DNA of 51,572 nucleotides, taken from assembly GCF_035615515.1 (NCBI RefSeq), contig NZ_JAJENT010000802.1:1-51572 (forward strand), given 5' to 3'. Origin of the DNA: Phormidium sp. CCY1219 (GTDB lineage: Bacteria; Cyanobacteriota; Cyanobacteriia; Cyanobacteriales; Laspinemataceae). A model generated the notes under the pieces. The model saw only the letters and a list, made by a program, of their open reading frames with translations, was not told the DNA's origin and made no database searches. Positions 15,498-37,395 of this stretch are shown piece by piece. Position numbers and translations under genes: made by a program. The first letter of the stretch is position 1. Each line of letters opens with the position of its first letter.

Positions 15498-15775
15498 AGA
15501 AGCACAGGCGATCGCCCGACTATAGCGTTAGTGGCATTGCCCTCCCGCAAATATGCAGCGCCAGAGCGATTTTTCCTCAAACTAGGACAACAGATTAACA
15601 ATCACTAACAAAAAAGGGGGAATGACCCCCGTAGCGATCGCGGGGGGAGTCTGGTAGAGTCAAAAAAAATCAGCAGCACCCTTGCATAATTGGCGACGGA
15701 GTGTCCTACTAAAGTCATAGGCTCCTGAAAAAGCGCTTTCCAGCGGCTCACTTTGTTGTCTAAAGGAGAACGAGA

Positions 15776-17659
15776 ATGTTCAATCCTTTTCACCGCGATC
15801 GCATCCCAACGCCACCCAAGCGTTTGAATAACGCCGAGCGATTTTCCACCTGTCTGATGGTGGATACGCAGCAGGGGCGTGTAGTGTTGCAATGGATTAC
15901 CCAACCGCGTTTGAGGCGCAACTTTCAGTTATATGCGGCGCGGGATCCGAACTTCGCGCGCTTGGGCGATCGGCGAGAAAGCGCCTTAGAAGCGTTTTGG
16001 ATCGACCTCGCCCTGAATCCGCCACCCCCCCAACCCTGGGAACCCACCAATCGCGAGCAACTCGCGTTGCAACATTTAGCCAGTTACTACGAACTCATTT
16101 GTGACAAAGCTGCCAAATGGATCGTCAACAAACATGGCCAACTTTTATGGCAAGATGCGTTCGATATTGCCAGAATCCTAGTCCATGACGAGGAAAAATT
16201 GGCAAGTATTTTAAGTCAATATCAAGCCAAAGGAGACGCTAAATTATCCACCTATTTGCAAGAAGTTTTAATCAGAACGATTAAAAGCGAAGCCTCAGTG
16301 GGTCGGTATTCTTACTGGCGGTTAGTCTGTCAAACGCCGCAGTATAAATTAATCGATGCCTTAGGGAGATTCGGATGTCAAGAGCCGGAAATTTCGCAGA
16401 TTATTTTTGCGCGAAAGTATTTCCACCAAGTGTATTTATTTAACCGGGTGAAAAGTCCACACAGAAAGCCGGGAGAAATTTGGCCCGTGCCCCAACCGGA
16501 AGACTTTGGCGAAACGGCAAATTGCTACAATGCGGAAAGACTACTGCCTTCCGCACCCCCTGAAGTAGCCGCCAATCCCAATCCCGTCACTGGCGAGCAG
16601 ATGAAAGCCTGGATGGAAACCTGTTTTGAAGCCTTAAAAACCACCAAAAAGTTAACAAAAGAATGTTGGTCTCTTGACGTGCTTCGAGAAAAAGGCAGAG
16701 AATTTGCAGCTCCGGAAACGGAAAGCGAAGACTATTTTATTAACATAGTGGGAGAGGGTCAATTTAAGGGAGGTTACTTGAATGAAGCGAAAGGAATTAG
16801 CGAACGGTTGGAAACCGAGCTGAGAAACTGTAAAAATGTTATCGAACTGCAAGTGGAAAATGGTCGGTGGTTCATCGATGAAACGAACCTGCTTCCCCTC
16901 ACCTACGGATTCGGCTTGACCCAAACGCAGATTGCTGCTTTATGCAACCTAAAACAATATCAAGTCAGTCGAAAGCTGAGTTACTATAAAACTCAATTGC
17001 TGAACGCTTTAACCGAGATTAGTCAGCCCGAGGAATGGGTTTTGCCCTATGTTAGGGAGTGGTTGCAGAAATATTTTCCAGCTCCCAACCGTGCGGATAT
17101 CATTCAAGCGGCTTTAGTCGAAGCGCTCAAAGAGATTACAGCCTCAGAACGAGAGTTATTGTCCCTGTGCTACGGAGAGCAACTCGATGTCAGGGCGGTA
17201 GGCGATCGCCTGGGAATCTCGCCAGAGGAAGTCGAAGCGAAATTAAACCGCATTGAAACCCAGTTGCATAATGCGTTATTGAAGCACCTAGATAAATGGA
17301 TGAAAGAGTATATCAAGCAATGGCTGTATGAGGTTTACCAACTGTCCATTCAACAAGTCTTAATCCATCATGTCCAGGAGCTGCCATTGCCAATTCAGAA
17401 CAGCTTGCAAATTCATTATCAAAATTATGCCAAACCGGAACAATTAGCGCGGGAGGTGAGACTTAGCGAATCAGAGGATAGCCAGCTTTTTTGGAAAGGA
17501 AGGTGCCAGGTAGAAGAGGATTTAGTTCGGTGGATTTTGGAGGAACTAAACATTAACCTGACTGGAAATAAAGAACGGGAAAGAATTAATAAAATCGTCG
17601 AGCGAAACTTGATAGCCATCTATAAACAAGGTAAAGGAGGACAAGACAATGAGAGCTAG
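15776..17659 (+). CDS. hypothetical protein with duplicated sigma-70-like modules (region-2-like segment plus two region-4-like HTHs)
   Basis: LLWQDAFDIARILVHD..YLQEVLIRTIKSE (sigma region-2-like); LTQTQIAALCNLKQYQVSRKL (region-4-like); SERELLSLCYGEQLDVRAVGDRLGISPEEVEAKLNRIETQL (canonical region-4-like). Confidence 0.55.
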   Translation: MFNPFHRDRIPTPPKRLNNAERFSTCLMVDTQQGRVVLQWITQPRLRRNFQLYAARDPNFARLGDRRESALEAFWIDLALNPPPPQPWEPTNREQLALQHLASYYELICDKAAKWIVNKHGQLLWQDAFDIARILVHDEEKLASILSQYQAKGDAKLSTYLQEVLIRTIKSEASVGRYSYWRLVCQTPQYKLIDALGRFGCQEPEISQIIFARKYFHQVYLFNRVKSPHRKPGEIWPVPQPEDFGETANCYNAERLLPSAPPEVAANPNPVTGEQMKAWMETCFEALKTTKKLTKECWSLDVLREKGREFAAPETESEDYFINIVGEGQFKGGYLNEAKGISERLETELRNCKNVIELQVENGRWFIDETNLLPLTYGFGLTQTQIAALCNLKQYQVSRKLSYYKTQLLNALTEISQPEEWVLPYVREWLQKYFPAPNRADIIQAALVEALKEITASERELLSLCYGEQLDVRAVGDRLGISPEEVEAKLNRIETQLHNALLKHLDKWMKEYIKQWLYEVYQLSIQQVLIHHVQELPLPIQNSLQIHYQNYAKPEQLAREVRLSESEDSQLFWKGRCQVEEDLVRWILEELNINLTGNKERERINKIVERNLIAIYKQGKGGQDNES

Positions 17660-19109
17660 AAACCATCGCAGAATTAACCCGATTGATGACTCGTTAATGT
17701 TGAAAATCGCACCGGAAGACCAAGAACGAGGGTGGCAGCTTGCTCAGAGCCATTCCAATGCGATCGCCCGCTATCATGGATATCTCAACTGGCTGAGTGT
17801 TAAAACAGTCTTACCTTGGCTGGAGGAATGGGCAGCGGAAGAAAATTTACCCAGACCCGCAATTTGGCCCGGGGAAGAAAGAGTGCCGAGCGTTTTAGAA
17901 CTCGTCCATAATGGCACTGCCATTCAAGTGGGTAACAGGCGATTAATCCTGATTCCATCAGATGAAATGGAACCCGAATTGTTTACCGTACCCCAGGAAT
18001 GGGTAGACAATCCGAGCTGGATGGGAGATTATTATTTAGCAGTGACAGTTAGTGTGGAAGGAGAAGAGGATGACTGTTGGATGAAAGTATGGGGATTCGC
18101 CACCCACCGACAGGTGAAAAATCGAGGAAATTATGATGCAAACCATCGCAGTTATTCCCTAGCGCTTGCAGAGTTAACCCGTGACTTAACGGTAATGGAA
18201 ATTGCGTTAGGACTTCAGGTGCGCGAGGTAGTGAAACCTTTACCACAGTTATCGGAAACCGAAGTAAAACAATGGTTAGAGCAGTTGGGAGATGCGTCAG
18301 TATATTCGCCGCGCTTGCAATTGCAGGTGCCTTTTGAGAAATGGGCCGCCCTGTTGAGTGACGATCGCCTCAGACAACACCTGTGCGATCGACGCATGGG
18401 AAAATTAGCGGCGGAGGTGGAAAATACCTCGCCGGTAAAGTTGCGAGAATGGTTAGAGAATGTGCTTGACTCGGGAAAGAATGCGTTAGAAGATGGATGG
18501 CAACAGTTTGAGTGGCTGGTATCTCCAGCAGAACCCAGTGCGGTGCGCGGGAAAAGCGAAGTGGTAGACGCCATTGCACCAGTCATTCGCTTGCTGCAAC
18601 CCAAGGAATTAGAACAGACTCGTCGCCATGCGGCGGGGGTATTGGGAGAACTAGGGGTGGGCAATCCAGAGGCGATCGATGCGTTAACCCAATTGTTGCA
18701 TACCGCTCGCGAGGAGGAAACCCGTTGGCAAGCGGCGCTGAGTTTGGGTAAAATCAGTCCGGGGCATCCGCAAGCTGGAATTAGAAAAGCCAGGTATCTG
18801 GATTTTGGATTGCAGTTGGAGGGTCACTCGATTGCGTTAATTGTTGCCATTATGCCCAGAAATGATAACCGACTCGGCGTGTTTTTGCAAGTGCAACCAA
18901 TCGCGGGAAGGAAATTGCCACCCTATCTAAAATTGAGCCTACTTTCGGAATCTGGAGAAACGAAAAAAGAAGTGGAAAGTCGAAGTGATGAGGAAGGAAA
19001 AGGAAAGGATAACTTAATTCAATTGCGGTTTAGTCCGCCTTCGGGCACTCGATTTAAGGTGCGAGTTTCAGTGAATGAAGTTAGCGCTACCGAGGAGTTT
19101 ATCGCATAA
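17649..19109 (+). CDS. hypothetical protein with C-terminal HEAT/PBS-lyase-type repeats (possibly DUF1822-like); overlaps the upstream gene by 11 nt
   Basis: HAAGVLGELGVGNPEAIDALTQLLHTAREEETRWQAALSLGKI is an E-Z/HEAT repeat. The ATGAGAGCTAG overlap implies translational coupling. Confidence 0.55.
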   Translation: MRARNHRRINPIDDSLMLKIAPEDQERGWQLAQSHSNAIARYHGYLNWLSVKTVLPWLEEWAAEENLPRPAIWPGEERVPSVLELVHNGTAIQVGNRRLILIPSDEMEPELFTVPQEWVDNPSWMGDYYLAVTVSVEGEEDDCWMKVWGFATHRQVKNRGNYDANHRSYSLALAELTRDLTVMEIALGLQVREVVKPLPQLSETEVKQWLEQLGDASVYSPRLQLQVPFEKWAALLSDDRLRQHLCDRRMGKLAAEVENTSPVKLREWLENVLDSGKNALEDGWQQFEWLVSPAEPSAVRGKSEVVDAIAPVIRLLQPKELEQTRRHAAGVLGELGVGNPEAIDALTQLLHTAREEETRWQAALSLGKISPGHPQAGIRKARYLDFGLQLEGHSIALIVAIMPRNDNRLGVFLQVQPIAGRKLPPYLKLSLLSESGETKKEVESRSDEEGKGKDNLIQLRFSPPSGTRFKVRVSVNEVSATEEFIA

Positions 19110-19149
19110 CATATGCCGCAGTTAAGCGAATTAGCAGGGAACTACAGTT

Positions 19150-21636
19150 ATGGGAAAGGCGATCGTTTTAAAAATAGTGGCGGGTGACTTTGACAGCGGA
19201 TTTCCCGTTGTGTTACAAGTCTTGGACGAGCGCGGCGGTCTTCCTTTGGCAGAACGCTCGGGTTATCTTCCACCGCATCCGCATTTGGAAGGATATTATT
19301 TCAATTGGCAAACTAGCTTTCGCAGTCTGACAAGTCAGAGAGGGAGGGATTGGGGAATCGATCCAGATTTACCCTCTAATGTTTCTAATGAATACGATAT
19401 AGAAGCTTGTCGCGAATATGCCAAATTGCTAGAAAAAAATATGAAAGAGTGGCTGCGGCAGACAGTTGATGCAGGATGTCTAAACATTAGAGAGAGATTG
19501 ATTGAGGATTTGGCGGAAAATAGGGGTAACGTTCGCATAACGATCCAAGCCAATCCCAAATTATGGAAGATGCCTTGGTTGGAGTGGGATATATTGTCAA
19601 AGTATGCCGATTTGGGGATTGGGTTTAGTCTGCTGGAGTATCAGAAACCCGACGCGATCGCTCGCAGTGGAAAGCAAGGTGCTGCCGTGCGAATTTTGGC
19701 GGTGTTTGGCAACAACGAGAATATTGATTTGACACCGGATAAACAGGCGATCGCGCAACTGCCGAATGTCGAGTTAGAACCGTTGGAGCAACCCTCGGCA
19801 GCAGAAGTGATTCAGAAGTTACGAGATAAGAGAGGATGGGATATTTTCTTTTTTGCCGGTCACAGTCAAACCAAAGGCGATGAGGGAATCATTTATATCA
19901 ACGAACGGGAAAGTTTAGAAATCGGACAGTTTAAGGAGGCGTTAAAGGAAGCGATTCGCCAGGGATTGCAATTAGCGATTTTTAATTCTTGCGACGGATT
20001 GGGGTTAGCGGAAAAGCTGGCGGGATTGCACCTGCCGATCGCGATCGTGATGAAAGAACCCGTGCCCGATCGGGTAGCGCAGCGCTTTTTAACAGAGTTT
20101 TTGAAGGAATATGCATCGGGAGCGTATTTATATACGGCGGTGAGGCAAGGGCAAAAATGTTTAGAAGAATTTATCGATTTACCGGGATGTACCGGGTTGC
20201 CGATCGTCTGTCAGAATCCGGCTGAAGTGCCGCCGACATGGGAGGAGTTGCGGGGTAGGGAAAGGGGAAGTGTATTGATTCCCGAATCGATAGAGATAAG
20301 CGATGCCGGAACTATTTTCCGCGATCGCGAAAAGCAAGTGCCGGATGAACTCACTGGTTCCTCAGTTCGCGATCGTAAAATTGTATGGAGAAAACTGGGT
20401 CGCTCATTAGCTGTGAGTTTTGCGATCGGGCTGTTTGTCCTCAGCGCACAATGGCAAGGAAAACTTGAAACCTGGGAACTGCAAGCCTTTGACCATTTAA
20501 TGAGGCAGCTTCCCGTGGAAGACATAGATCGCAGGCTTTTAATTGTGGGAGCCGATGAAACGGATTTGAGCTTGTATGGACACCCTTTACCGGATGCTAT
20601 TTTAGCAGAAGTTTTAGAAAAAATCAATGAGTATCAACCTGCGGCAATTGGGTTAAATATTATTCGCGATCGTCCAGTGGAAAACAGAAATTATCCCGGC
20701 GAACATAACGCTTTCCTGACTCAGATAAATACTTCATCAAAAAATGTGATTTTAGTCTGTTCTATCGGAAATGACTTAGACAGTAGCACAGAGCCTTTAC
20801 CAGGACTGGTGGATAGCGAGCGACAAGTGGGATTTATTGATGTGTTTGACGATCGTGATTTAGCCCTGGACAATCGCTTACGTCGCTATCTCTTATATCG
20901 CAGTGATAATCCAGTTCCCGAGCCTACGAAATGTCATACTCCTTATTCTTTAGTTTGGCATGTAGTGGAGCGTTATTTCCAACATCATCACTCTATTGAC
21001 GTGACCCTATCCCATAGCCACTCAAAATTTGGCTCAGTTGGGATTCAACGGATCGCAAATCGCAGTGGGGGATACCAGAATTTGGGGGAATATGCTAAAG
21101 GCAATCAAATACTGATTCGTTATCGCCATACTCCGGATCCGAATCAGATCGCTCACCAAATTACCGTGCGAGATGTGTTGGAACAACGCCATTCGTTTAA
21201 ACGATCTCGAATCGAAGGAAATGTTGTTTTGATTGGCATGACCGCTCCAACGTTACAGAAGTCGTTTTCTACCCCTTATGGGAAAATTAGCGGGTTAAAC
21301 ATTCATGCCCATGTAGTGAGCCAGATCCTTAGTACCGTTGAGGGGGAATTGAAGGGCAAAAATAAGCGACCCTCGATTTGGTGGTGGCCTCAATGGGTTA
21401 ATGCACTTTGGGTATTATTATGGTCATCTATTGGTGGAACGATCGTCTGGCGTTTTCAACAACCTTTACAGCGATGGGTAGCCATTAGTGGTGCTATTCT
21501 GATATTATATGGAGTCTGTTTGTTTGCCTTAACTCAAGGAGGCTGGATTCCACTAATACCAACCATTTTAACCCTCCTGACCCCCACCTTTTGCTTGAGT
21601 TTATATACCCTATTCAAGCTGAAGTCGTTTGATTAA
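19150..21636 (+). CDS. CHAT (caspase-like protease) domain fused to a CHASE2 sensor domain: N-terminal cytoplasmic CHAT, TM, periplasmic CHASE2, three C-terminal TMs
   Basis: CHAT His/Cys dyad context DIFFFAGHSQ .. LAIFNSCDGLGLA. TM helix LAVSFAIGLFVLSA. CHASE2 motifs LLIVGADETDLSLYG, VGFIDVFDDRDLALDNRLRRYLLY, VVLIGMTAPTLQKSFSTPYGKISGLNIHAHVVSQIL. A hydrophobic C-terminus gives three helices. Confidence 0.8.
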   Translation: MGKAIVLKIVAGDFDSGFPVVLQVLDERGGLPLAERSGYLPPHPHLEGYYFNWQTSFRSLTSQRGRDWGIDPDLPSNVSNEYDIEACREYAKLLEKNMKEWLRQTVDAGCLNIRERLIEDLAENRGNVRITIQANPKLWKMPWLEWDILSKYADLGIGFSLLEYQKPDAIARSGKQGAAVRILAVFGNNENIDLTPDKQAIAQLPNVELEPLEQPSAAEVIQKLRDKRGWDIFFFAGHSQTKGDEGIIYINERESLEIGQFKEALKEAIRQGLQLAIFNSCDGLGLAEKLAGLHLPIAIVMKEPVPDRVAQRFLTEFLKEYASGAYLYTAVRQGQKCLEEFIDLPGCTGLPIVCQNPAEVPPTWEELRGRERGSVLIPESIEISDAGTIFRDREKQVPDELTGSSVRDRKIVWRKLGRSLAVSFAIGLFVLSAQWQGKLETWELQAFDHLMRQLPVEDIDRRLLIVGADETDLSLYGHPLPDAILAEVLEKINEYQPAAIGLNIIRDRPVENRNYPGEHNAFLTQINTSSKNVILVCSIGNDLDSSTEPLPGLVDSERQVGFIDVFDDRDLALDNRLRRYLLYRSDNPVPEPTKCHTPYSLVWHVVERYFQHHHSIDVTLSHSHSKFGSVGIQRIANRSGGYQNLGEYAKGNQILIRYRHTPDPNQIAHQITVRDVLEQRHSFKRSRIEGNVVLIGMTAPTLQKSFSTPYGKISGLNIHAHVVSQILSTVEGELKGKNKRPSIWWWPQWVNALWVLLWSSIGGTIVWRFQQPLQRWVAISGAILILYGVCLFALTQGGWIPLIPTILTLLTPTFCLSLYTLFKLKSFD

Positions 21637-21652
21637 ACTAATGCACTGATTT

Positions 21653-22432: not shown

Positions 22433-22542
22433 TACCTTGTTGGTAGCAAATCTCTCAATCTAAGATTTTCTGGTGTAGGGGCAATTCATCAATTAAACCT
22501 ACACTATTAATTGAGGCGCTATCCTCCTGGGGATTTGGACGT

Positions 22543-25359
22543 TTATCGCCAATTTCCGACTAAAATGTAAGGTGCCCAAGATTTGGGGTTTTGATACTTG
22601 AGAGTTTTTAAAAGAGCTTTTTGAGCGCGATGAAGTGCCTCAGCTTTCGTGACTCCCCTTTCGATGAATTCCAAATAAAACTGTTTCATCAGTTGATTGG
22701 TTGAGTCATCCTGAACTCGCCAAAGGGTAGCAAGGGTACTGCGAGTTCCGGCTCGGACTGCTAACCCGGCTAATCCTAAAGTAGCGCGGTTATCCCCATC
22801 GGCGGTTTTACAGGCACTCAAAACGAGTAATTCAATCGTGCTAGAGGGAGTGCGATCGCGAAGCAGTCTATCAAATTCGTTAGGTCGGATTAATTGACCA
22901 GTGGAGTTTGCTGAACCATAAACCAAGATATAAGTATTCTGTGGATTTGAACTAAATTGTCCATGAGTTGCCATGTGGACGATAGAAAACGATCCGATAT
23001 TTAACTTTTGTTTGAGTCGGGGCTGGGTAAACTCTGAGTTTAACAAAATTTGAGTCGAAACTAGATTGCTAATACTTTCTAGTTCAGTGCGGACATCTAG
23101 GGGTTGAAAGTTTTTATCTTCTACTGTTAGAGCTTCAGTAACTCCGGTTGCCAATACGCTGAGTTGGGCTGACTCTTGTTCTAAATCGAAAGTTTGTAAA
23201 TTTGGCAATAGAGCAATCGCATAATCCTTTTCCACTAAATATTTTTCGGTTTGGCGATCGTATAATGCTGCGATGGGAATATTTTTTAACTCCCCATCCA
23301 AGACAAAAACTAGGGTTTTGAGTTCAGCGCTAGTTTCTAAGGCGGGTTCTAGGGGTTGGATTAACCAGCGATAAAGATTATCAGAGTTCTCTAACAGATC
23401 TTCCAATGATGAAGGGTTGGCTAGTTTACGTCGGAGTGTTGCGACATTCTCTTGCACTTCTGCCCGAGGAATGGGAATCATCCGACGTTCTAATGATTGT
23501 TGGGGTAATTTAAACAAAACTTCTATCCGATTTGGCAAGAGAATCGGATAAATGAGGGCAGCATCTCGGGTAATCTCATTGAGCGATCGCTCAATTCGAG
23601 CCGATGAATCCAGCGATCGCCCGGCGTTAGAAACGGCTAGATTGCATTGCAGGAAGTTTTCGAGTTCAGCGAGTTGCAGCGCATCAATAAACTGAATTGC
23701 ATTTTGCAGGCGATCGCGATTTTGGTCAGCGGTTTGTAACAGCAGATCGACAAATTGCCGATACATGGGTTCAACATTATCTCTCAACGAAAACTGCACA
23801 TCGGCATTAACGGCCAATAAATCATTTCGCAGCGAATCTAGGATTTCAACGGCAGCGGTATAGTTACCGATCGCATCTTCTACATTCCCTTCACCCGCTA
23901 ACAACCGTCCCATCTGCCACTGCCACTGATATCTCAACTCTGGCGCATTACTTTGTACCGCTAACTCTAACGCTTCCTGAGTTAACGTTTTCGCTTTCTG
24001 TCTGTTTGGGTTATCTCCCTGCTTTTGCGCTTGTGGTGGCAAGAAAGATTCATAGCGTTTCCCTTGAGTCCCGATCGCATACGATTTTAGTCGCGCATCC
24101 CGTAATGTCTCCGCTTCTGTTACCGCCTGCTGCAATAATCCATCAATTTCTTCCCTCGAGACAAGCGCCAATTCTGCTGTCTCTCCCTGCCCTAATTTTT
24201 CGCACTGCATCAAACTACAGGCTAACTTAATTCGCGCTTCTACCAGTGGTTTACTCAGTTTCATCTCGCTCATCTGAGATTGAATCGCCGCCAATAAGGA
24301 TTGTAATTCTGTGCCTTGAGTTTCCGATTGACGCAGCAAACTGAAGAGATTTAATTGCGCTAGAAGTTTGATGGTAGGTGAAGGCGCGATCGCCAGCGCC
24401 TGGTGGTAATAATTTATTGCGGCTTTTCGATACTCCTCAGCCTCTTGTATCTCTCCATAGTCTTCTTTTTGTTTGGCTAAAGATTGTTGAGTATTAGCTA
24501 GGAAAAATAAGGTCAAGCTTTTTTCTCTCGGCGAATCGATTTGACTGATTAAAACCCAAGTATTCTGTAAAATTTGCTCCGATGCATCAAGCTGCCCGAT
24601 CGCTCGCAAAACATTTCCCAAACTCCGCAATGCGATCGCTTTGAGTTCCGGATTATATTCTCCCGCGAAATGCCGTTGCACCAATTCAATCTCTGACTCG
24701 GTTTCTATTGCATCACAAGACAAATTCTCTTCTGCGCCAACCACTTCCAATAACAGATTACAGGAGCGCCGATAATAGCCCATTTGTTCCAATGCCTGAG
24801 CTTGATTCACCAGTGCCCCGAGTTGTCCTTCTTCATCATTAAGGTGCTGGTATTCTGCTGCGGCATTTTCCCAACTGTCAAACGCGGTTTCTGCGTTTCC
24901 CAAAGCCAATAATAAATGACCTCGAGTATTCAATGCCACTGCACGAGCAATGCGATCGCCTCTTGTTTTTCCCATCCGTGCTAATTGCAGACTGGCCGAG
25001 CTGGCTTTTTCGGCATTGTCCCATTGTTTCAATTTTTGATAAGTTAAGGACAAATAACTCAATGCCAAAGACTGATTTAAGCGGTTGCCGTGTGCCGCAT
25101 AAAAATCCGCCGCTTGTTGGAGTGTTTCTGCTGCTTCAGAATAGAGATTGCGACGATAGAGTTCCCTCCCCCTTTCCATCAGTTGTTGGGGCGTAGCGGA
25201 TTGCGAGATAAGCTGGGACACTTCCCATGAGTGCCCTATCTGCAATCCGGGGATGCCGAGGGCGAATATTACCCCCAACATCCCTAACAGGAAGAATCTC
25301 AACCCCCGTTTCAGAACGGATTCCACCTGACGGAAAAATACACCCCATTTTCTTGCCAC
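22543..25359 (-). CDS. TPR-repeat CHAT-domain protease with an N-terminal signal anchor
   Basis: N-terminal TM (FFLLGMLGVIFALGIPGL). Several TPR units (YSEAAETLQQAADFYAAHGN..). C-terminal CHAT (SIVHMATHGQF .. LLVLSACKTADG). Confidence 0.85.
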   Translation of the reverse strand: MARKWGVFFRQVESVLKRGLRFFLLGMLGVIFALGIPGLQIGHSWEVSQLISQSATPQQLMERGRELYRRNLYSEAAETLQQAADFYAAHGNRLNQSLALSYLSLTYQKLKQWDNAEKASSASLQLARMGKTRGDRIARAVALNTRGHLLLALGNAETAFDSWENAAAEYQHLNDEEGQLGALVNQAQALEQMGYYRRSCNLLLEVVGAEENLSCDAIETESEIELVQRHFAGEYNPELKAIALRSLGNVLRAIGQLDASEQILQNTWVLISQIDSPREKSLTLFFLANTQQSLAKQKEDYGEIQEAEEYRKAAINYYHQALAIAPSPTIKLLAQLNLFSLLRQSETQGTELQSLLAAIQSQMSEMKLSKPLVEARIKLACSLMQCEKLGQGETAELALVSREEIDGLLQQAVTEAETLRDARLKSYAIGTQGKRYESFLPPQAQKQGDNPNRQKAKTLTQEALELAVQSNAPELRYQWQWQMGRLLAGEGNVEDAIGNYTAAVEILDSLRNDLLAVNADVQFSLRDNVEPMYRQFVDLLLQTADQNRDRLQNAIQFIDALQLAELENFLQCNLAVSNAGRSLDSSARIERSLNEITRDAALIYPILLPNRIEVLFKLPQQSLERRMIPIPRAEVQENVATLRRKLANPSSLEDLLENSDNLYRWLIQPLEPALETSAELKTLVFVLDGELKNIPIAALYDRQTEKYLVEKDYAIALLPNLQTFDLEQESAQLSVLATGVTEALTVEDKNFQPLDVRTELESISNLVSTQILLNSEFTQPRLKQKLNIGSFSIVHMATHGQFSSNPQNTYILVYGSANSTGQLIRPNEFDRLLRDRTPSSTIELLVLSACKTADGDNRATLGLAGLAVRAGTRSTLATLWRVQDDSTNQLMKQFYLEFIERGVTKAEALHRAQKALLKTLKYQNPKSWAPYILVGNWR

Positions 25360-28300
25360 GTTCTGTCCCTCGAATCAATCTCAACTAAAGGTAGACCCCA
25401 GTCTAACCGAGCAGAGAAGTCATTCCCCAGTTGCAATTGTAAACCCAATCCGGTGGAAAGTAACGTATTTTTATCCGGGTTGGCGCGATCGCCTTCATCC
25501 CAGTTCCACCCCACCCCCAAATCCACAAAGGGAATCACCTGCAAACTGCCTTGCAACTGGGGAAACTGGACAATCGGATATTGTAACTCTACCGAAGCAA
25601 AGGCCCCATTATCCACCAGTAATGCATCTTGGCGATAGCCCCGCACGCTATTGAATCCACCGACGCTAAACTGTTCTAATGGCAGTAGGGAATTCGTCGC
25701 TAACTGGATATCTCCGCGCAGGATGAGTAACGGATCTGTGCCCCCTGTTACGCCTAAACCGTCTAACCGACGCACCCACTGTCCCTGTCCCCGCCACGCC
25801 AAAAATCGGCTATCGGGTTCGTTGTCATTTACGGTGGCATCAAACCATCCGACACCCAAACTGAATTCGGACCGGGCGGCAAAGATTTGTTGACTGTCTT
25901 GCCATAAGGCATCTTGAAAGAATCGAATGGCAGAAACGCGGGTTTCACCGTTGTTGTTTGCGCCGGGGGAAAGGGGGAAATCTACGCCTAATAAAGAGGT
26001 TTCGCTTTCCCGACGCGAGGCGGTGATTCCTAATGCCAATTCGGTTCGAATTAAGTTGCTGGCATCTTGCAGGGATTGGTTGGGAGATTTGGGAATAATC
26101 CGTTGAATAATGGGTTGACGATAGCTGAGTTCGTAGGTGCGAGAATTCGCTTCGATATCCACTTCATCGAAAGGGGGTTCGACGATTTTGCTGTCGCCTG
26201 TGCTGTAGCGGAAAGTGAGGGTGCCATTGTTAGGGGTGAGGGGGAGGGCATACCCGAAATCTAAGTTGTTACTGCCATCGGTATTGGCATAGTTGAAGGT
26301 GGCAATGTCACCGAGTCCTAACAAATTGTATTGTGTGAGTTGCGCTTGACGACGCAAACTGCCAACCGAGGGCGATCGCCCGTTATCAATTGCCAATTGA
26401 GGGCTAAAAAATCGCGCTTTTTCGACGCTGACGGCGAGGAAACTGGTATCGGGTTCGATGCCTGCAGCAAGTTCGGCGGAGATGGTTTCCAGGCGGGGGT
26501 CGAATTGCAGGAGGTAGAGGGATTCTAGGAGGGTGTCGGTATTGACGATATCGCCGGGGTTTAATCCCAGACGGTTTCGCACGTAGGTGGCATATTGGTT
26601 GGTGAGGCGGGAGTTGCCGATGACGCGGATATCTTCGAGACGGTTTTCGATCGCTTGGATGGTGACGACGCGATCGCGCACGATTTGCGGCGGGAGAAAG
26701 GCCCCTGAACCGATATATCCTTGTTGTTCGTAAAAGGTGGCGATCGCTTCTGCTGCTTCCTGAAGTTCGGTAAACGTGAGATTGCGGTTGGTGTAAGGTT
26801 CGGTGATGGCGGCGAGTTGTTCGGGAGAAAGGGCGCTGCTGTCGCGCAGTTCAAATCGCGCTACGGTAAGGGTTTCGGGGACGGAAGCCACGGGAGTGGT
26901 GACAAGGGTTTTCGGTTGTTGTGCCGAGAGACAACCGGGGGAGAGTGAGGATTGATTGGTGAGGGGAGTGGCGGCGTCGGGTGCAATCAGTTCGAGTTCG
27001 CCGCGATCGTTGATTCTCATGCCGGTTGCTTCGATTTTGAGGATGCGGCGAGGTGGTACCGGTGAGGGAGTGTTGGGGAGGGGTTCTTCGGTGGCGGGTG
27101 TTTCCTCCAGTTGCAAGACGCGCCAATCTTCCCATCCCTCCCGAGGGGTGAGGGGATCGGTGGGACTGGCGGGGATGCCCCCTTTGCCGGTTTGGACAAA
27201 TTCGCTGTTTTGGACGATGCGACAGGGATCGCGATCGACGAGGGATGCTACATCTACGATTTCGTCTTCTAATTCGACAACGCCGCGACTGGGGTCGATG
27301 TCGGGAGTGTTGAGGGCAATTTGTCCGCTTAAGGTGGGATCGGTGCGCGAAATGGCGGTAATATCGCTGGTATCGGGGAGGTCTATAGTGGGGTCGAATT
27401 GACTCAAGTCAGCATCTAAAACGTTTTCCAATTCCTCTCGCGATCGCGGTTCTAATCCAAAGATTCCTTCAGCAGTAATATTAATAACGCCACCGCTGCC
27501 ATCAAAGGCATTGGCAGAAATATCGCTATTTTCTAAAGCAGCAATAATCTCGGTATTGATGTTAATATTACCGCCATTTCCAGGTAAATTTGCGGTTCCA
27601 GCAGTAGTGGAAATTTCGCTTTGGCGACGCAGGAACATATTATCGGATTCTACGATAACATTTCCTCCTTCACCGGAGGCAGTTTCTGCGGTGAGTCTTC
27701 CGGTCTCGAGACGGAATTCAGGACTGATAATTTGAAGATTGCCTGCTGCACCTCCGCCTAATGCGGCATCGACGGCTACTTTTGCTCGATCTTCGATATT
27801 TAATTGTTCGGTGGTAATGCTCAAGCTTCCCGCATTCCCCGTTCCGGTGGTGATAACGGTGATGCGACTGGGTAATAAACCGTCTGGATCTCGCGAGGGT
27901 AAGGGTTCAGTTGGGGGGATTGCCGATCGCCCAGTCACTTCAACAGAATCGGCATTAATAATCACAGAACCGCCTTGTCCATTGCCAAAAGTATCGGAGG
28001 AAATTGCTGCACCATCACCGACGATAACGCGATCGGCGGAAACCGTTATATCTCCTGCATCTCCCAGTTGAGCGACGGGGACTCGGGGATCCGGTCGAGA
28101 TTGACTAACTGCACCACTAGGCAATCCATCTGCATCGGTTCCGAGTAATTCTAGGGTTTCTGAAGCGTTTAAATTTAAAATGCCACCGCGTCCGGATCCT
28201 ACGGTGAGGACAGAAATTTGTCCGCCTTCTAACACCGTTAAATTGCGGGTATTGATGTTAATATTGCCGCCGGTAGATGTTCCAGTAGTTAAGGCAGTGA

Positions 28301-29843
28301 TTTCAGCGCGATCGCTAACGATTAACCCTCCCGTGTTGATGGTAATGTTACCTGCTTCTCCGGTTGCATTTGGCGCAACAAAAGCGGCTATTCTGCTCCG
28401 ATTTAATTCTCCACGGGGATTGGTAATGCCGCCACTGATTTCCAGCAATCCTGTATTTTCAATAGTCAAATTTCCGGCATTTCCACTGGCTGATGTGGAG
28501 GTAGAAATCACAGCGCCGTTCAGAATGGTTAAGCGATCGCTGCGAATGGTGATATCTCCCGCAGTTCCCGTTGCTGGAATGGGATCGATCCGCCGGAGTG
28601 CAACAATACTTAACAAGCTGCTCGGGCCGACTGGAGAAGCTCCGCTTAATTCTATTTCGCCAGCGTTAATCTCTAAATTTCCACCCCGTCCTCCAGCATA
28701 GGTACTGGTCGAAATTTGTGCGCCATTTCGGACTGTTAAGCGATCGGCTTCAATTGTTAAATTGCCAGCATCACCCGCTCCTTCCGTTTGATTGAATAAA
28801 CCGGCTGCCAGTGGAGGTGGAGGTTCTGCACCCGCTGGAATATTGGGAGGAATTGGTCGTGGTAAAAAACCACTCACTTCGATTTCTCTTCCTTGAATGG
28901 TTACATCTTGTCCCGGTGCGAAACCATAGGTGCTACTGGTAATTCCTGAATTTTCCACAATCAGGCGATCGCCGCGCACTTGAATCGCACCCCCTCCCCC
29001 GCGTGCATTGGGAAACATTGGCGGCAAACTGCTGGCATCTACCACAGAATTATTGATAACTTGAATGTTACCAAACTGTTCTATTTCCTGATAAGACAAT
29101 GAAAATCCTGTCTCTGCGGGGGCTAAATTGACGGTGCCATTCACCACACCACCCAGTTCGATTCGTCCTTCTAATGCGGCGAGGTTCCCATTATTTAAAC
29201 TAACCTCTCCCCCCACCAAACCCAACGTTTGTCCCGGCGCAACAGCCAACCCTAACGGCGCACCAATGCTATTGACGGGAAATTGTTCGGGAGTTGCTTG
29301 GGATTGATTGATGATTCTGCCGGTATTGCTCTCAAATTGTAATTCTGTAGGAATGCTAATGGTTAAAATGGGTGTAGTTGTGGCAAGGTCGGTGCTAAAC
29401 AAGCTACCATCGGCAAACCCAATCCGATTGGCGGTAGTTGCTAAAAACGATCCACCGATTCGTAATTGAGCGTTGGGTCCAAAAATAATCCCATTGGAAT
29501 TGATTAAAAATAAGTTTGCAAACCCATTGGCACTCAAAATTCCATCTATATTTGAGATTGAATCTCCGGTGATGCGAGAAAAGATATTTTGGATGGCGGG
29601 AGAATTGTTAAAAAAAGCGCTGCCATTAGTGGGGATAGAAAATTCCTGGAAGCTATGGAAGAGATTGCCGCCTCGGATGGTTCCCCCGTTAATCTCGAAG
29701 CGGTTCCCGTCAGAATTGATGAGGGAATTGTCGGGAAGGGTGGTATCGGGGACAATTTGAGGAAATGCTGGAGTAGCGATCGCTACAATCGCTAGAGAAA
29801 AACCGCTCAAAAACCAGCACCCTGAAAACGCATTGGGTTTCAT
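25311..29843 (-). CDS. two-partner-secretion protein carrying both a TpsA-type TPS (haemagglutination-activity) domain with beta-helix passenger and a C-terminal TpsB (ShlB/FhaC-type POTRA + beta-barrel)
   Basis: Signal peptide. TPS domain NGGTIRGGNLFHSFQEFSI..NIFSRITGDSISNIDGILSANGFANLFLINSNGIIFGPNAQL. Long Gly/Asn-rich beta-helix repeats. POTRA (LTFTELQEAAEAIATFYEQQGYI..), then a beta-barrel ending ..YFSVRWNPF. Confidence 0.8.
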   Translation of the reverse strand: MKPNAFSGCWFLSGFSLAIVAIATPAFPQIVPDTTLPDNSLINSDGNRFEINGGTIRGGNLFHSFQEFSIPTNGSAFFNNSPAIQNIFSRITGDSISNIDGILSANGFANLFLINSNGIIFGPNAQLRIGGSFLATTANRIGFADGSLFSTDLATTTPILTISIPTELQFESNTGRIINQSQATPEQFPVNSIGAPLGLAVAPGQTLGLVGGEVSLNNGNLAALEGRIELGGVVNGTVNLAPAETGFSLSYQEIEQFGNIQVINNSVVDASSLPPMFPNARGGGGAIQVRGDRLIVENSGITSSTYGFAPGQDVTIQGREIEVSGFLPRPIPPNIPAGAEPPPPLAAGLFNQTEGAGDAGNLTIEADRLTVRNGAQISTSTYAGGRGGNLEINAGEIELSGASPVGPSSLLSIVALRRIDPIPATGTAGDITIRSDRLTILNGAVISTSTSASGNAGNLTIENTGLLEISGGITNPRGELNRSRIAAFVAPNATGEAGNITINTGGLIVSDRAEITALTTGTSTGGNININTRNLTVLEGGQISVLTVGSGRGGILNLNASETLELLGTDADGLPSGAVSQSRPDPRVPVAQLGDAGDITVSADRVIVGDGAAISSDTFGNGQGGSVIINADSVEVTGRSAIPPTEPLPSRDPDGLLPSRITVITTGTGNAGSLSITTEQLNIEDRAKVAVDAALGGGAAGNLQIISPEFRLETGRLTAETASGEGGNVIVESDNMFLRRQSEISTTAGTANLPGNGGNININTEIIAALENSDISANAFDGSGGVINITAEGIFGLEPRSREELENVLDADLSQFDPTIDLPDTSDITAISRTDPTLSGQIALNTPDIDPSRGVVELEDEIVDVASLVDRDPCRIVQNSEFVQTGKGGIPASPTDPLTPREGWEDWRVLQLEETPATEEPLPNTPSPVPPRRILKIEATGMRINDRGELELIAPDAATPLTNQSSLSPGCLSAQQPKTLVTTPVASVPETLTVARFELRDSSALSPEQLAAITEPYTNRNLTFTELQEAAEAIATFYEQQGYIGSGAFLPPQIVRDRVVTIQAIENRLEDIRVIGNSRLTNQYATYVRNRLGLNPGDIVNTDTLLESLYLLQFDPRLETISAELAAGIEPDTSFLAVSVEKARFFSPQLAIDNGRSPSVGSLRRQAQLTQYNLLGLGDIATFNYANTDGSNNLDFGYALPLTPNNGTLTFRYSTGDSKIVEPPFDEVDIEANSRTYELSYRQPIIQRIIPKSPNQSLQDASNLIRTELALGITASRRESETSLLGVDFPLSPGANNNGETRVSAIRFFQDALWQDSQQIFAARSEFSLGVGWFDATVNDNEPDSRFLAWRGQGQWVRRLDGLGVTGGTDPLLILRGDIQLATNSLLPLEQFSVGGFNSVRGYRQDALLVDNGAFASVELQYPIVQFPQLQGSLQVIPFVDLGVGWNWDEGDRANPDKNTLLSTGLGLQLQLGNDFSARLDWGLPLVEIDSRDRTWQENGVYFSVRWNPF

Positions 29844-36968: not shown

Positions 36969-37395
36969 GAAGTGGCGCAGCGAGTCCCCCGGGGTTCGCG
37001 AATCGGGCGATCGCGTCTGCTGGGGGACAAGCGGAATCTGGCTTGGTAACGTTTTCATCGGCAACCTCCCTGTCGGTTTAACTCCCTTAACCCTTTAGTG
37101 GGAAAGGCACGAACCGATTATGCAAGGCAGTTCGCCCGCCGTTTTCCGGTTCGCTATTTGCTTAGTGGGAGAGGGGATGGAAAATTATGCACGGCTGGAA
37201 AAAAATTCCTGCTGCAATCTCGAGATGTCTGCCACCCTGGGGGGCGATCGCCAATTGTGTAGCTTCGCAAACGCCTTCGCTTGGATCCATCGCCACAGTG
37301 GCTCCCAAAAATTGCGGTGGGATGGAAACCGACTGCTGCATAATTTGCCAATGTTTTCCCCAATAAATAGATAGAAGATTGCGAGGTCATTAAAT

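What the first reader, a model, noticed from the sequence alone, without database searches (positions are those of the whole stretch)
15776..19109. Protein with tandem sigma-70 region-4-like HTHs, translationally coupled to a HEAT-repeat protein
The 627-aa protein contains a sigma region-2-like segment and two region-4-like helix-turn-helix segments (LTQTQIAALCNLKQYQVSRKL; LSLCYGEQLDVRAVGDRLGISPEEVEAKLNRIETQL). It is far longer than an ECF sigma factor. Its stop codon overlaps the start of a HEAT/PBS-lyase-repeat protein by 11 nt. It could be a non-canonical sigma factor with a co-translated partner that acts as an anti-sigma factor or scaffold.
Basis: partly seen in the sequence, partly recalled or inferred. 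Interest (0 to 1): 0.55.

Follow-up and report, generated by a model that had tools for sequence, protein, structure and literature searches.

The report
Sigma factor with three tandem region-4 modules
This cyanobacterial gene encodes an unusually long sigma-70-family protein: a normal sigma core followed by two extra, acidic copies of its promoter-binding domain. It is the first gene of a conserved cluster with a DUF1822/HEAT partner and caspase-like (CHAT) sensor proteases, a cluster already noted by computation but never tested experimentally.

Summary
ORF 15776-17659 (627 aa) and ORF 17649-19109 (486 aa) overlap by 11 nt, and a strong Shine-Dalgarno sequence for the second gene lies inside the first. 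The window comes from Phormidium sp. CCY1219, where NCBI calls the 627-aa protein "hypothetical".

It is a sigma-70-family protein. It has a sigma-2 fold, a sigma-3-like stretch, a canonical sigma-4 (H1) and two more sigma-4-like units (H2, H3), so three modules rather than the two reported. Relatives carry 1, 2, 3 or 4 such units. Only unit 1 is basic; the extra units are acidic.

The downstream protein is a DUF1822 family member with two HEAT repeats and no recognisable anti-sigma fold.

The pair heads a cluster conserved across 80 cyanobacterial loci: sigma, DUF1822, CHAT-CHASE2 membrane protease, DUF928, TPR-CHAT and TPS-POTRA-ShlB.

A bipartite motif, TGCATAAtT-N12-TcCCAATAAg, lies upstream of the sigma genes. 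It occurs four times in this window against 0.01 expected. I read it as the cognate, autoregulated promoter.

Kaur et al. 2021 already noted that a sigma factor and DUF1822 accompany these caspase genes. I did not find the tandem sigma-4 units or the promoter motif described anywhere. The proposed mechanism, release of sigma by CHAT proteolysis, is inference.

The parts
15683..15713 (+). Candidate cognate promoter of the sigma operon: TGCATAATT (15683-15691), a spacer, then CCTACTAAA (15705-13). It starts 92 nt upstream of the sigma ATG.
   Evidence: The pattern GCATAA-N16-CYANTWA occurs 4 times in the window against 0.01 expected. It occurs 56 times in 1.57 Mb of related loci against about 1.5 expected, with 34 copies within 500 nt upstream of sigma genes. 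The consensus comes from 45 unique instances.
15763..15768 (+). Shine-Dalgarno AAGGAG, 7 nt before the sigma ATG
   Evidence: Read directly from the sequence.
15776..17659 (+). Gene for the 627-aa sigma-70-family protein (WP_324634090.1, annotated 'hypothetical protein')
15776..16045 (+). N-terminal extension (residues 1-90), conserved in the family, with no match to any known domain
   Evidence: No Pfam or NCBIfam hit. Conserved in alignments A1 and A3. Low to medium pLDDT.
16052..16471 (+). Sigma-2-like domain (residues 93-232). The region 2.2/2.3-like motif is LASILSQYQAKGDAKLSTYLQEVLIRTIKSE (residues 142-172).
16496..16780 (+). Sigma-3-like helices (residues 241-293) followed by an acidic, low-confidence linker (residues 294-335) in the position of region 3.2
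   Evidence: Family profile positions 260-383 align to cyanobacterial SigA 252-370, that is region 3.0 through 4.2. pLDDT is below 50 for residues 293-335.
16793..17095 (+). Unit 1: canonical sigma-4 (H1, residues 340-416, HTH LTQTQIAALCNLKQYQVSRKL) plus a trailing helix EEWVLPYVREWLQKYF. Net charge of the HTH is +4.
   Evidence: TIGR02937 sigma-4 part E 2.7e-5. SigF sigma-4 8jzt E 7e-4, improving to 1.9e-7 with the deep profile. Relatives of about 400 aa end after this unit. Charge.
17096..17362 (+). Unit 2: extra sigma-4-like module (H2, residues 441-503) plus a trailing helix KWMKEYIKQWLYEVY. Net charge is -5.
   Evidence: Pfam Sigma70_r4 E 7.6e-7. hhalign U1-U2 97.6%, E 2.8e-12. Charge.
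17363..17638 (+). Unit 3: extra sigma-4-like module (H3, residues 530-592) plus a C-terminal helix (residues 598-621). Net charge is -5.
   Evidence: hhalign U2-U3 96.8%, E 2.4e-10. The same segment of homologue P0005 hits Sigma70_r4 at E 2.1e-5 and of P0013 hits r4_2 at E 1.4e-5.
17634..17641 (+). Shine-Dalgarno AAGGAGGA for the DUF1822 gene, inside the 3' end of the sigma gene and 7 nt before ATG 17649
   Evidence: Read directly from the sequence.
17649..19109 (+). Gene for the 486-aa DUF1822 protein. It has an N-terminal alpha/beta domain (residues 16-190), helices, a disordered linker, two HEAT repeats (residues 303-369) and a C-terminal beta-sandwich (residues 378-485).
   Evidence: Pfam DUF1822 E 2.4e-81, HEAT_2 E 3.5e-9, HEAT_PBS E 4e-4. 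AlphaFold model pLDDT 81. No significant PDB fold match.
18543..18551 (+). Conserved VRG (residues 299-301) in the low-confidence linker of DUF1822, within the motif P.EP..VRG. This is a speculative protease-cleavage site.
   Evidence: Conserved in about 21 of 26 aligned DUF1822 proteins and flanked by insertions of variable length. pLDDT is below 50 for residues 274-303. The cleavage role is inference only.
19150..21636 (+). 828-aa membrane sensor-protease: a cytoplasmic N-terminal domain, CHAT (His238, Cys281), a transmembrane segment, CHASE2, and C-terminal transmembrane segments
   Evidence: Pfam CHAT E 2.6e-9 and CHASE2 E 6.1e-56. Catalytic dyad motifs AGH and NSC, and hydropathy. The architecture matches the 'EACC2 + caspase + CHASE2' proteins of PMC8195603.
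21653..22432 (+). 259-aa DUF928 protein with an N-terminal signal-like hydrophobic segment
   Evidence: Pfam DUF928 E 3.8e-46. Hydropathy. Present in 65 of 80 loci.
22543..25359 (-). 938-aa TPR-CHAT protein with an N-terminal membrane anchor or signal and an intact His/Cys dyad
   Evidence: Pfam CHAT E 6.3e-56 plus TPR. Motifs THG and SAC. Present in at least 47 of 80 loci.
25311..29843 (-). 1510-aa fused two-partner-secretion protein (TPS domain + POTRA + ShlB/Omp85 barrel), upstream of TPR-CHAT in the same minus-strand operon
   Evidence: Pfam TPS E 8e-63, POTRA_2 and ShlB. Present in at least 43 of 80 loci.
37334..37370 (+). Second copy of the promoter motif, 29 nt upstream of the CAP/DUF5648 gene (37396-38526)
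   Evidence: PWM score 33.3, the highest in the window.
37091..37194 (-). Two more copies of the motif (37158-37194 and 37091-37127), about 400-465 nt upstream of the 1914-aa S8 subtilase gene (30952-36696, minus strand)
   Evidence: A homologous subtilase in locus L003 carries the motif 94 nt upstream of its start. There is no convincing small ORF in the leader.
15524..15560 (-). Weaker, one-mismatch copy of the motif, divergent from the sigma promoter and 31 nt upstream of the NfeD-like ORF (15033-15497, minus strand)
   Evidence: PWM score 13.0.

Best explanation
The 627-aa protein is a genuine but atypical sigma-70-family factor. It has a family-specific 90-residue N-terminal extension, a sigma-2 domain, a sigma-3-like segment with an acidic linker, and a basic canonical sigma-4 (H1). 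After these come two further copies of an 88-residue unit, each a sigma-4-like HTH plus a 'W..YVxxWL' helix. These extra copies (H2, H3) are acidic and probably do not bind DNA.

The protein is the cytoplasmic output of a conserved cyanobacterial envelope-signalling cluster, made of sigma, DUF1822, a CHAT-CHASE2 membrane protease, periplasmic DUF928, TPR-CHAT, and an outer-membrane TPS-POTRA-ShlB protein.

Proposed mechanism:
1. Sigma and the DUF1822/HEAT protein are made together from one tightly coupled mRNA and form a complex that keeps sigma inactive or tethered. (Inferred.)
2. A signal sensed outside the cytoplasm by CHASE2 activates the cytoplasmic caspase-like CHAT domain (His238/Cys281). 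CHAT then cleaves the partner, possibly at the conserved VRG in its disordered linker, or cleaves sigma's own extensions. (Inferred.)
3. Freed sigma, using sigma-2 and H1, directs RNA polymerase to promoters of the form TGCATAAtT-N12-TcCCAATAAg. These lie in front of its own operon and in front of nearby genes for large exported proteins, here the S8 subtilase and the CAP/DUF5648 protein. (The motif and its positions are shown; its recognition by this sigma is inferred.)

Shown here: the domain architecture, the repeat structure, the charge asymmetry between units, the synteny and the motif enrichment.
For: Sigma identity:
- A 143-sequence family profile matches FliA at E 5e-12 and SigA at E 2e-9, covering regions 2.2/2.3 and 3.0-4.2.
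- Pfam r4 hits.

Repeats:
- hhalign U1-U2 97.6% and U2-U3 96.8%.
- Family size classes carry 1, 2, 3 or 4 units.
- A one-unit form exists in Gloeobacter.

Charge:
- Unit 1 has mean net charge +3.4 and is positive in 90% of 156 sequences.
- Unit 2 has mean -0.95 and is positive in 27%.
- Unit 3 has mean -2.7 and is positive in 13%.

Synteny over 80 loci: DUF1822 in 78, CHAT/CHASE2 in 73, DUF928 in 65, TPR-CHAT in at least 47, TPS/ShlB in at least 43. The same core, with a caspase-STAND-WD40 protein in place of CHAT-CHASE2, is present in Gloeobacter.

Coupling: the SD for the partner lies inside the sigma gene with an 11-nt overlap, and junctions are short in relatives.

Promoter:
- 4 copies against 0.01 expected in the window.
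- 56 against about 1.5 expected in the loci, 34 of them upstream of sigma genes.
- All copies in the window are intergenic and point towards a gene.
- The centre-to-centre spacing of about 23.5 bp equals the canonical -35/-10 geometry.
- The simple consensus scan found no promoter-like site in the 15498-15775 intergenic region.

Precedents:
- Kaur et al. 2021 propose caspase activation with a sigma output for these neighbourhoods.
- In Craspase, a TPR-CHAT protease cleaves Csx30, which holds the sigma factor RpoE (PMC9729208).

Both CHAT proteins retain the His/Cys dyad.
Against: - No single-sequence model detects region 2. The above-cutoff TIGR02937 score is the sum of two sigma-4 hits, so it does not test sigma-2.
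- The region 2.3 'WW' of primary sigmas is replaced by 'EV'.
- The DUF1822 model resembles no known anti-sigma factor and has no transmembrane segment. Its role is inferred from gene linkage alone.
- No sigma-DUF1822 or sigma-RNAP interaction could be modelled.
- DUF1822 length does not track the number of sigma-4 units: 384, about 444, about 497 and 403 aa for 1, 2, 3 and 4 units. There is therefore no co-variation signal for binding to the extra units.
- The motif is absent or diverged upstream of 24 of the 58 dereplicated sigma genes, and in the Gloeobacter and four-unit loci. Another factor could recognise it.
- No motif lies upstream of the TPS-ShlB/TPR-CHAT operon.
- Nothing here shows proteolysis.
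Confidence: 0.5

Rival explanations
1. Pro-sigma model. Sigma itself is the CHAT substrate. Its 90-residue N-terminal extension and/or the acidic sigma-4-like units H2 and H3 are built-in inhibitors, for example decoys that occupy sigma-2, H1 or the beta-flap site. The membrane CHAT-CHASE2 protease removes them, as SpoIIGA and SpoIVFB process pro-sigmaE and pro-sigmaK in Bacillus. DUF1822 is then an adaptor or chaperone rather than an anti-sigma factor.
For: - Both extensions are conserved in the family.
- The extra units are acidic and unlikely to bind DNA.
- The number of units varies from 1 to 4 without a matching change in DUF1822.
- The low-confidence linkers at 293-335 and 552-565 would be accessible to a protease.
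- Kaur et al. speak of 'autopeptidase activation' followed by a step that involves the sigma factor.
- That membrane proteases process pro-sigma factors is established knowledge for B. subtilis sigmaE and sigmaK.
Against: - One-unit relatives such as the Gloeobacter protein lack the extra units yet keep the same DUF1822-caspase-DUF928 neighbours. The extra units therefore cannot be the essential regulatory element.
- No conserved cleavage motif was identified in sigma.
- The near-obligate, tightly coupled DUF1822 gene fits a stoichiometric regulator better.
Confidence: 0.2
2. Not a sigma factor but a multi-HTH transcription regulator. The tandem sigma-4-type HTHs bind the two ATAA-containing halves of the conserved motif as a direct repeat, and activate or repress a promoter used by another holoenzyme. 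The sigma-2-like domain is a relic used for protein contacts.
For: - The two motif halves share ATAA (cATAAt and aATAAg) about 23 bp apart.
- Several HTHs are present in one chain.
- Region 2 is too diverged for Pfam and NCBIfam.
Against: - Units 2 and 3 are net acidic across the family.
- The same motif occurs with two-unit and three-unit proteins.
- One-unit relatives exist.
- The spacing equals the -35/-10 geometry.
Confidence: 0.1
3. Sigma-mimic or partner-switching component. The protein, or its extra sigma-4-like units, does not drive transcription itself. Instead it titrates a regulator, for example DUF1822 acting as an anti-sigma for a different sigma, in the way the sigma-like domain of PhyR sequesters NepR.
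For: - Degenerate, acidic sigma-4-like units exist.
- Sigma-like domains used as decoys are established for PhyR.
Against: - No receiver or other switch domain is present.
- H1 is basic and conserved (Q394 in at least 90% of 143 sequences).
- A dedicated promoter-like motif sits upstream of the family's own genes.
- No second sigma gene is conserved in the cluster.
Confidence: 0.08

Closest known systems
[quoted passage not shown]
   Same: [quoted passage not shown] It is likewise restricted to cyanobacteria, mostly filamentous ones. My proposed logic, a sensor activating a caspase that leads to a sigma output, is the same as theirs.
   Different: Their text gives the association one passage. 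In the parts I read it does not mention tandem sigma-4 units or a promoter motif, and the words DUF928 and TPS do not appear in its main text. It calls the sigma 'ECF', whereas the family profile matches group 3 and group 1 sigmas best and has a sigma-3-like insert. They frame the systems as conflict or apoptosis systems. Here the candidate regulon consists of large exported proteins, and PADLOC finds nothing. I did not test the EACC2 domain itself.
Type III-E CRISPR Craspase: TPR-CHAT (Csx29) cleaves Csx30, which is bound to the sigma factor RpoE
   Same: A CHAT-family protease is encoded next to a sigma factor and a sigma-binding partner, and cleavage of the partner is linked to sigma activity (PMC9729208).
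   Different: No CRISPR effector is present here, and the trigger would be a CHASE2 membrane sensor rather than target RNA. DUF1822 is unrelated to Csx30 or Csx31 by the searches run. RpoE of Craspase is a short ECF sigma without extra sigma-4 units. Cleavage is demonstrated there and only inferred here.
Sigma/anti-sigma pairs controlled by regulated proteolysis or cell-surface signalling (RseA-sigmaE, FecA-FecR-FecI)
   Same: The sigma gene is co-transcribed with, and tightly coupled to, a partner gene. Envelope components from the outer membrane, periplasm and inner membrane are encoded alongside. A conserved promoter precedes the operon, which suggests autoregulation. These comparisons draw on established knowledge of those systems together.
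   Different: DUF1822 has no transmembrane segment and no known anti-sigma domain. The protease is caspase-like rather than a site-1/site-2 protease. The sigma is three times the length of an ECF sigma.
Group 3 sigma factors (FliA/WhiG, SigB/SigF/SigG)
   Different: All scores are far below the subfamily cut-offs. This protein also has an extra N-terminal domain, an insert between sigma-2 and sigma-3, and one to three additional sigma-4-like units that no group 3 sigma has.
ECF sigma factors with regulatory C-terminal extensions (for example groups ECF41 and ECF42; from my own knowledge, not checked here)
   Same: A C-terminal extension fused to the sigma is proposed to modulate its activity in place of, or alongside, an anti-sigma factor.
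   Different: Those extensions are SnoaL-like or TPR domains, not duplicated sigma-4 units. Those sigmas have no sigma-3-like part and no DUF1822 or CHAT partners.

Membership tests
Sigma-70 family | Sigma-2 domain (regions 2.1-2.4) | tested here: met
Sigma-70 family | Sigma-4 domain (regions 4.1-4.2 HTH) | tested here: met
Sigma-70 family | Binds RNA polymerase core and directs promoter-specific initiation | not testable with these tools
   The only evidence is indirect: a conserved bipartite motif with -35/-10 geometry upstream of the family's genes.
ECF (group 4) sigma factors | Only sigma-2 and sigma-4, joined by a short linker, about 170-250 aa, no sigma-3 | tested here: not met
   The protein is 627 aa. 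About 130 residues separate sigma-2 from H1, and they include a stretch that aligns to regions 3.0-3.2 of SigA and FliA. The best profile matches are group 3 and group 1 sigmas. Every ECF subfamily model scores far below its cutoff. The TIGR02937 superfamily score passes only because two sigma-4 units are summed.
DUF1822 (PF08852), for the 486-aa partner | Full-length match to the family model | tested here: met
   E 2.4e-81, model positions 1-370 of 370. NCBI names it a DUF1822 family protein.
HEAT / PBS-lyase HEAT-like repeat proteins, for the partner | HEAT repeat helical hairpins | tested here: met
   HEAT_2 E 3.5e-9 (residues 311-375) and HEAT_PBS at 21.1 bits against a cutoff of 20.9. 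Four helices span residues 303-369 in the model. The HEAT repeats are only a sub-domain of a DUF1822 protein.
Known anti-sigma factor families, for the partner | A recognisable anti-sigma domain or fold (ZAS/RsrA-type, RskA, FlgM, NepR and so on) | tested here: not met
   No Pfam or NCBIfam hit apart from DUF1822 and HEAT. Foldseek against PDB returns only generic beta-sandwich matches at E of 4e-3 or worse. This lowers the claim 'it is a known anti-sigma', not the claim 'it acts as one'.
EACC2-caspase systems (Kaur et al. 2021) | [quoted passage not shown] | tested here: met
   CHAT plus CHASE2 in the 828-aa protein, with an intact His238/Cys281 dyad. Sigma and DUF1822 lie immediately upstream. 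The arrangement is conserved in 73 of 80 loci.
EACC2-caspase systems (Kaur et al. 2021) | Identity of the N-terminal domain as EACC2 | not tested
   No EACC2 model or reference sequence was available. Residues 1-200 of the 828-aa protein have no Pfam hit.
LuxR/GerE-type HTH regulators | GerE-type HTH as the best match, with no sigma-2 domain | tested here: not met
   No Pfam GerE hit; the best HTH models are Sigma70_r4 and r4_2. A sigma-2 fold is present.
PhyR-like sigma mimics | A sigma-like domain fused to a receiver domain | tested here: not met
   No receiver domain was found. The only sign is a weak NF006623 hit at E 0.06 on the sigma-4 part.

The most novel reading that the evidence does not exclude
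A caspase-gated sigma factor pathway specific to cyanobacteria. An outer-membrane TPS/ShlB protein, periplasmic DUF928 and TPR-CHAT relay a signal to a CHASE2 sensor. The sensor's cytoplasmic CHAT protease then cleaves the DUF1822/HEAT partner, or sigma's own decoy units, to release a sigma factor. That sigma has evolved one to four tandem sigma-4-like units, the extra ones acting as acidic built-in mimics or docking modules. It switches on a dedicated regulon, marked by TGCATAAtT-N12-TcCCAATAAg, of giant exported proteases and adhesin-like proteins. This would be a new mode of sigma control, with proteolysis by a caspase-like enzyme outside CRISPR systems, and a new sigma architecture.
Probability: 0.3. 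Interest if true: 0.75.

Novelty: new variant of a known kind. Interest (0 to 1): 0.58.

Why it matters
Filamentous cyanobacteria carry several copies of this cluster per genome. At least four sigma paralogues were found in Calothrix sp. NIES-4105, and this Phormidium strain has a second, four-unit sigma paralogue. None of the components has been studied experimentally, as far as my searches show.

If the reading is right, three things follow:
- The sigma-70 family gains an architecture with a variable number of sigma-4-like units, which raises the question of what a non-DNA-binding sigma-4 copy does.
- The large DUF1822 and DUF928 families gain a testable role.
- It would be a second case, independent of CRISPR Craspase, of a CHAT protease wired to a sigma factor.

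The predicted promoter makes the idea directly testable, because it names candidate target genes in this very window.

Tried and rejected
1. Co-variation between the number of sigma-4 units and DUF1822 size. In the 80 loci, three-unit sigmas pair with longer DUF1822 proteins (median ORF 497 against 444). But the three-unit loci are the window's closest relatives in the scan, a four-unit sigma pairs with a 403-aa DUF1822, and a one-unit sigma pairs with a 384-aa one. Rejected as evidence for binding.

2. TIGR02937 above its cutoff as proof of a complete sigma. Its two matched stretches are both sigma-4, namely H1 and H2. Rejected as a test of region 2.

3. Pfam and NCBIfam on isolated segments. 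Nothing was found for the N-terminal extension, the sigma-2 region, or H3 of the window protein itself.

5. PADLOC defence models. No hits except a weak TPR match.

6. Rfam on the whole window. No hits, so no known riboswitch in the 400-nt subtilase leader. No convincing small ORF lies there either.

7. The motif upstream of the TPS-ShlB/TPR-CHAT operon, and in the Gloeobacter and four-unit loci. It was not found, or was found only in diverged form with spacing 2 nt longer.

8. Canonical sigma-70 promoter and terminator scan of 15400-22700. Promoter-like sites were no more frequent than chance, none lies in the sigma upstream region, and there is no convincing terminator between the four plus-strand genes.

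9. Literature searches for tandem or duplicated sigma-4 domains, and for DUF928 together with CHASE2 and CHAT. Nothing relevant turned up. The library does not cover subscription journals.

10. Look-up of the four-unit paralogue from the same genome (P0291). It is not on record.

Full report
**Source and observation**

The window is a whole contig of Phormidium sp. CCY1219, order Oscillatoriales. The 486-aa protein is 100% identical to an NCBI 'DUF1822 family protein' on a contig of exactly 51,572 bases. The 627-aa protein is WP_324634090.1, annotated 'hypothetical protein'.

The two ORFs are as described:
- The first is 15776-17659 (+), 627 aa, with AAGGAG 7 nt before its ATG.
- The second is 17649-19109 (+), 486 aa. 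AAGGAGGA at 17634-17641 lies 7 nt before its ATG and inside the first gene, giving an 11-nt overlap.

The N-terminus of the first protein is conserved from residue 1 in homologues, so both starts are sound.

**What the 627-aa protein is**

Single-sequence models see only helix-turn-helix segments:
- Pfam Sigma70_r4 and r4_2 match residues 446-494 above threshold.
- NCBIfam TIGR02937 scores 54.3 bits against a cutoff of 42.9. Scanning the pieces separately shows that this score is the sum of two matches to the sigma-4 end of the model, one for residues about 368-412 and one for 439-501. Neither Pfam nor NCBIfam detects region 2.

Region 2 becomes visible only with more depth:
- A profile of 143 family members against PDB sequences matches FliA at E 5e-12 and cyanobacterial SigA at E 2e-9.
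- One stretch aligns the family motif around residues 142-176 (…ILSQYQAKGDAKLSTYLQEVLIRTIKSE…) to regions 2.2/2.3 (…kYD..kGasF.tYa…).
- A second stretch runs from region 3.0 to region 4.2 and ends on the first HTH.

The core is therefore sigma-2, a sigma-3-like segment, an acidic linker and sigma-4. The first HTH (H1, residues about 340-416) is the canonical region 4. This is the domain order of group 3 and group 1 sigmas, not of ECF sigmas.

**Three tandem units, not two**

Profile-profile comparison of sub-alignments shows that H1, H2 (441-503) and a third segment H3 (530-592) are homologous. H1-H2 scores 96.7% (E 3e-10) and H2-H3 scores 95.8% (E 8e-9).

The repeat is actually an 88-residue unit, made of the HTH plus a trailing helix with a 'W..YVxxWLxxxY' signature. 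On these units, U1-U2 scores 97.6% (E 2.8e-12) and U2-U3 scores 96.8% (E 2.4e-10). In homologues the H3 segment alone hits Pfam Sigma70_r4 (E 2e-5) and r4_2 (E 1.4e-5).

An exhaustive profile search finds 561 cluster representatives at E of 1e-3 or better. Their lengths fall into classes of about 400, 480-580, 600-630 and 705 aa, carrying one, two, three and four units respectively.

The one-unit form occurs in Gloeobacter kilaueensis, where NCBI annotates it as a sigma-70 family factor. The Phormidium strain of this window also has a four-unit paralogue.

Across the family the units differ in charge:

| Unit | Mean net charge | Share with positive charge |
|---|---|---|
| 1 | +3.4 | 90% (n = 156) |
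| 2 | -0.95 | 27% (n = 88) |
| 3 | -2.7 | 13% (n = 23) |

In the window protein the H1 HTH is +4, and H2 and H3 are -5 each. I infer that only H1 binds the -35 element and that the extra units serve protein-protein contacts or auto-inhibition.

**The partner**

The 486-aa protein is a full-length DUF1822 member (E 2.4e-81), with HEAT_2 and HEAT_PBS hits at residues 311-375. Its model (pLDDT 81) contains, in order:
- an N-terminal alpha/beta domain;
- helices;
- a disordered linker (residues 256-303);
- two HEAT repeats;
- a C-terminal beta-sandwich.

Foldseek against PDB finds only generic beta-sandwich similarity, and no anti-sigma fold. The protein has no transmembrane segment.

The linker carries a conserved P.EP..VRG motif (VRG at residues 299-301), flanked by insertions of variable length. 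I flag it as a possible protease site, but this is speculation.

**Surroundings**

The genes downstream on the plus strand are:
- an 828-aa protein with a cytoplasmic N-terminal region, a CHAT domain with His238/Cys281, a transmembrane segment, a CHASE2 domain and C-terminal transmembrane segments;
- a 259-aa DUF928 protein with a signal-like N-terminus.

Convergent on the minus strand are:
- a 1510-aa fused TPS-POTRA-ShlB protein;
- a 938-aa TPR-CHAT protein with an N-terminal anchor.

A scan of one genome per species returned 80 loci, all but one labelled as cyanobacteria or left unclassified. The exception is a MAG labelled Acetobacteraceae, probably mis-binned. Most loci come from filamentous genera, and several genomes contribute more than one paralogue.

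The conservation of each neighbour across those 80 loci is as follows. The last two counts are minima, because many contigs end early.

| Neighbour | Loci with it |
|---|---|
| DUF1822 directly after sigma | 78 |
| CHAT/CHASE2-type protein | 73 |
| DUF928 | 65 |
| TPR-CHAT | at least 47 |
| TPS/ShlB | at least 43 |

In Gloeobacter the same order holds, but the caspase protein carries STAND-WD40 instead of CHASE2. The sigma-DUF1822 junction is always short, but the 11-nt overlap is specific to this clade.

**A candidate promoter and regulon**

Upstream regions of the sigma genes share a bipartite motif. In this window it reads TTGCATAATTGGCGACGGAGTGTCCTACTAAA and starts 92 nt before the ATG.

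- The pattern GCATAA-N16-CYANTWA occurs 56 times in 1.57 Mb of loci plus window, against about 1.5 expected. Of these, 34 lie within 500 nt upstream of sigma genes.
- In the window there are 4 exact copies against 0.01 expected from dinucleotide shuffles.
- From 45 unique instances the consensus is TGCATAAtT-N12-TcCCAATAAg. Positions outside the search pattern are also conserved, and the centre-to-centre distance of about 23.5 bp equals the canonical -35/-10 geometry.

The other window copies are all intergenic and correctly oriented:
- one lies 29 nt before the CAP/DUF5648 gene;
- two lie 400-465 nt before the 1914-aa S8 subtilase gene;
- a one-mismatch copy lies 31 nt before the divergent NfeD-like ORF.

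In other genomes the motif precedes a homologous subtilase, a 502-aa protein that reads as a HlyD-type secretion protein and a 983-aa protein that reads as an ABC transporter (both judged from the sequence, not scanned), and a DUF928 gene. The consensus scan found no promoter-like site in the 15498-15775 intergenic region.

This pattern is what an autoregulated alternative sigma factor would produce. That this particular sigma recognises the motif is inference.

**Comparison with what is known**

Kaur et al. (eLife 2021, PMC8195603) describe genes for a constant N-terminal domain (EACC2), a caspase domain and a variable C-terminal domain, with CHASE2 named as one option. [quoted passage not shown] The neighbourhood is therefore already known at the computational level.

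I found no description of the tandem sigma-4 units, the promoter motif or the wider six-gene set. No experimental work turned up in the searches I ran.

The nearest experimentally studied analogue is Craspase, in which a TPR-CHAT protease cleaves Csx30, a protein that binds the sigma factor RpoE (PMC9729208). Classical sigma/anti-sigma proteolytic cascades and pro-sigma processing in Bacillus are functional analogues only.

**Verdict**

'Non-canonical sigma factor' is well supported. 'Anti-sigma or scaffold partner' is plausible, but it rests on gene linkage and on analogy.

I rate this a new variant of a known kind. It is of moderate to good interest because it pairs an undescribed sigma architecture with concrete, testable predictions.

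Noticed in passing
window 25311-29843 (-): A single 1510-aa ORF fuses a TPS secretion domain (normally on the secreted TpsA partner) to POTRA and a ShlB/Omp85 barrel (the TpsB transporter). It overlaps the start of the TPR-CHAT gene by 49 nt. It is conserved next to the sigma cluster in at least 43 of 80 loci.
   Followed up: partly
window 30952-36696 (-) and 36697-37194: A 1914-aa S8 subtilase carries a P-domain, Calx-beta, DUF4114 and SH3. Its leader is about 400 nt long, holds two tandem copies of the sigma-associated promoter motif, and has no convincing small ORF and no Rfam match.
   Followed up: partly
window 14179-14559 and 14563-15039 (+): Two adjacent ORFs, separated by a single stop codon, carry major-vault-protein repeat and shoulder domains (Vault_3, MVP_shoulder). 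This looks like a split or truncated bacterial MVP-like gene. An NfeD-like ORF lies on the opposite strand at 15033-15497.
   Followed up: no
window 38984-43231 (-): A 1415-aa protein has an NNH5 (NACHT N-terminal helical) domain and a long run of WD40 repeats, an architecture typical of the STAND-type signalling proteins common in filamentous cyanobacteria.
   Followed up: no
window 10620-13382 (+): A 920-aa multi-domain response regulator. Judged from the sequence only, it has an OmpR-type receiver plus winged helix, further receiver-like domains, an Hpt-like segment and a C-terminal GGDEF domain. It lies about 2.4 kb upstream of the sigma operon.
   Followed up: no
Phormidium sp. CCY1219, another contig (WP_324635383.1, 707 aa; P0291): The same genome encodes a paralogue of the sigma-like protein with four sigma-4-like units. 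Its close relative in Oscillatoria sp. HE19RPO (locus L083) sits in the same type of cluster, with a DUF1822 of only 403 aa.
   Followed up: partly
L081 8001-16140 (Gloeobacter kilaueensis): The basal cyanobacterium Gloeobacter has the ancestral-looking version of the cluster. It consists of a one-unit sigma (410 aa), a DUF1822 (384 aa, with a 1-nt overlap), a 1659-aa Peptidase_C14-nSTAND1-WD40 protein and a DUF928. The conserved promoter motif is absent.
   Followed up: partly
L060 (MAG labelled 'uncultured Acetobacteraceae bacterium'): One of the 80 loci is attributed to an alphaproteobacterial MAG, yet it carries the complete cyanobacterial-type cluster. This is probably a mis-binned cyanobacterial contig.
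   Followed up: no
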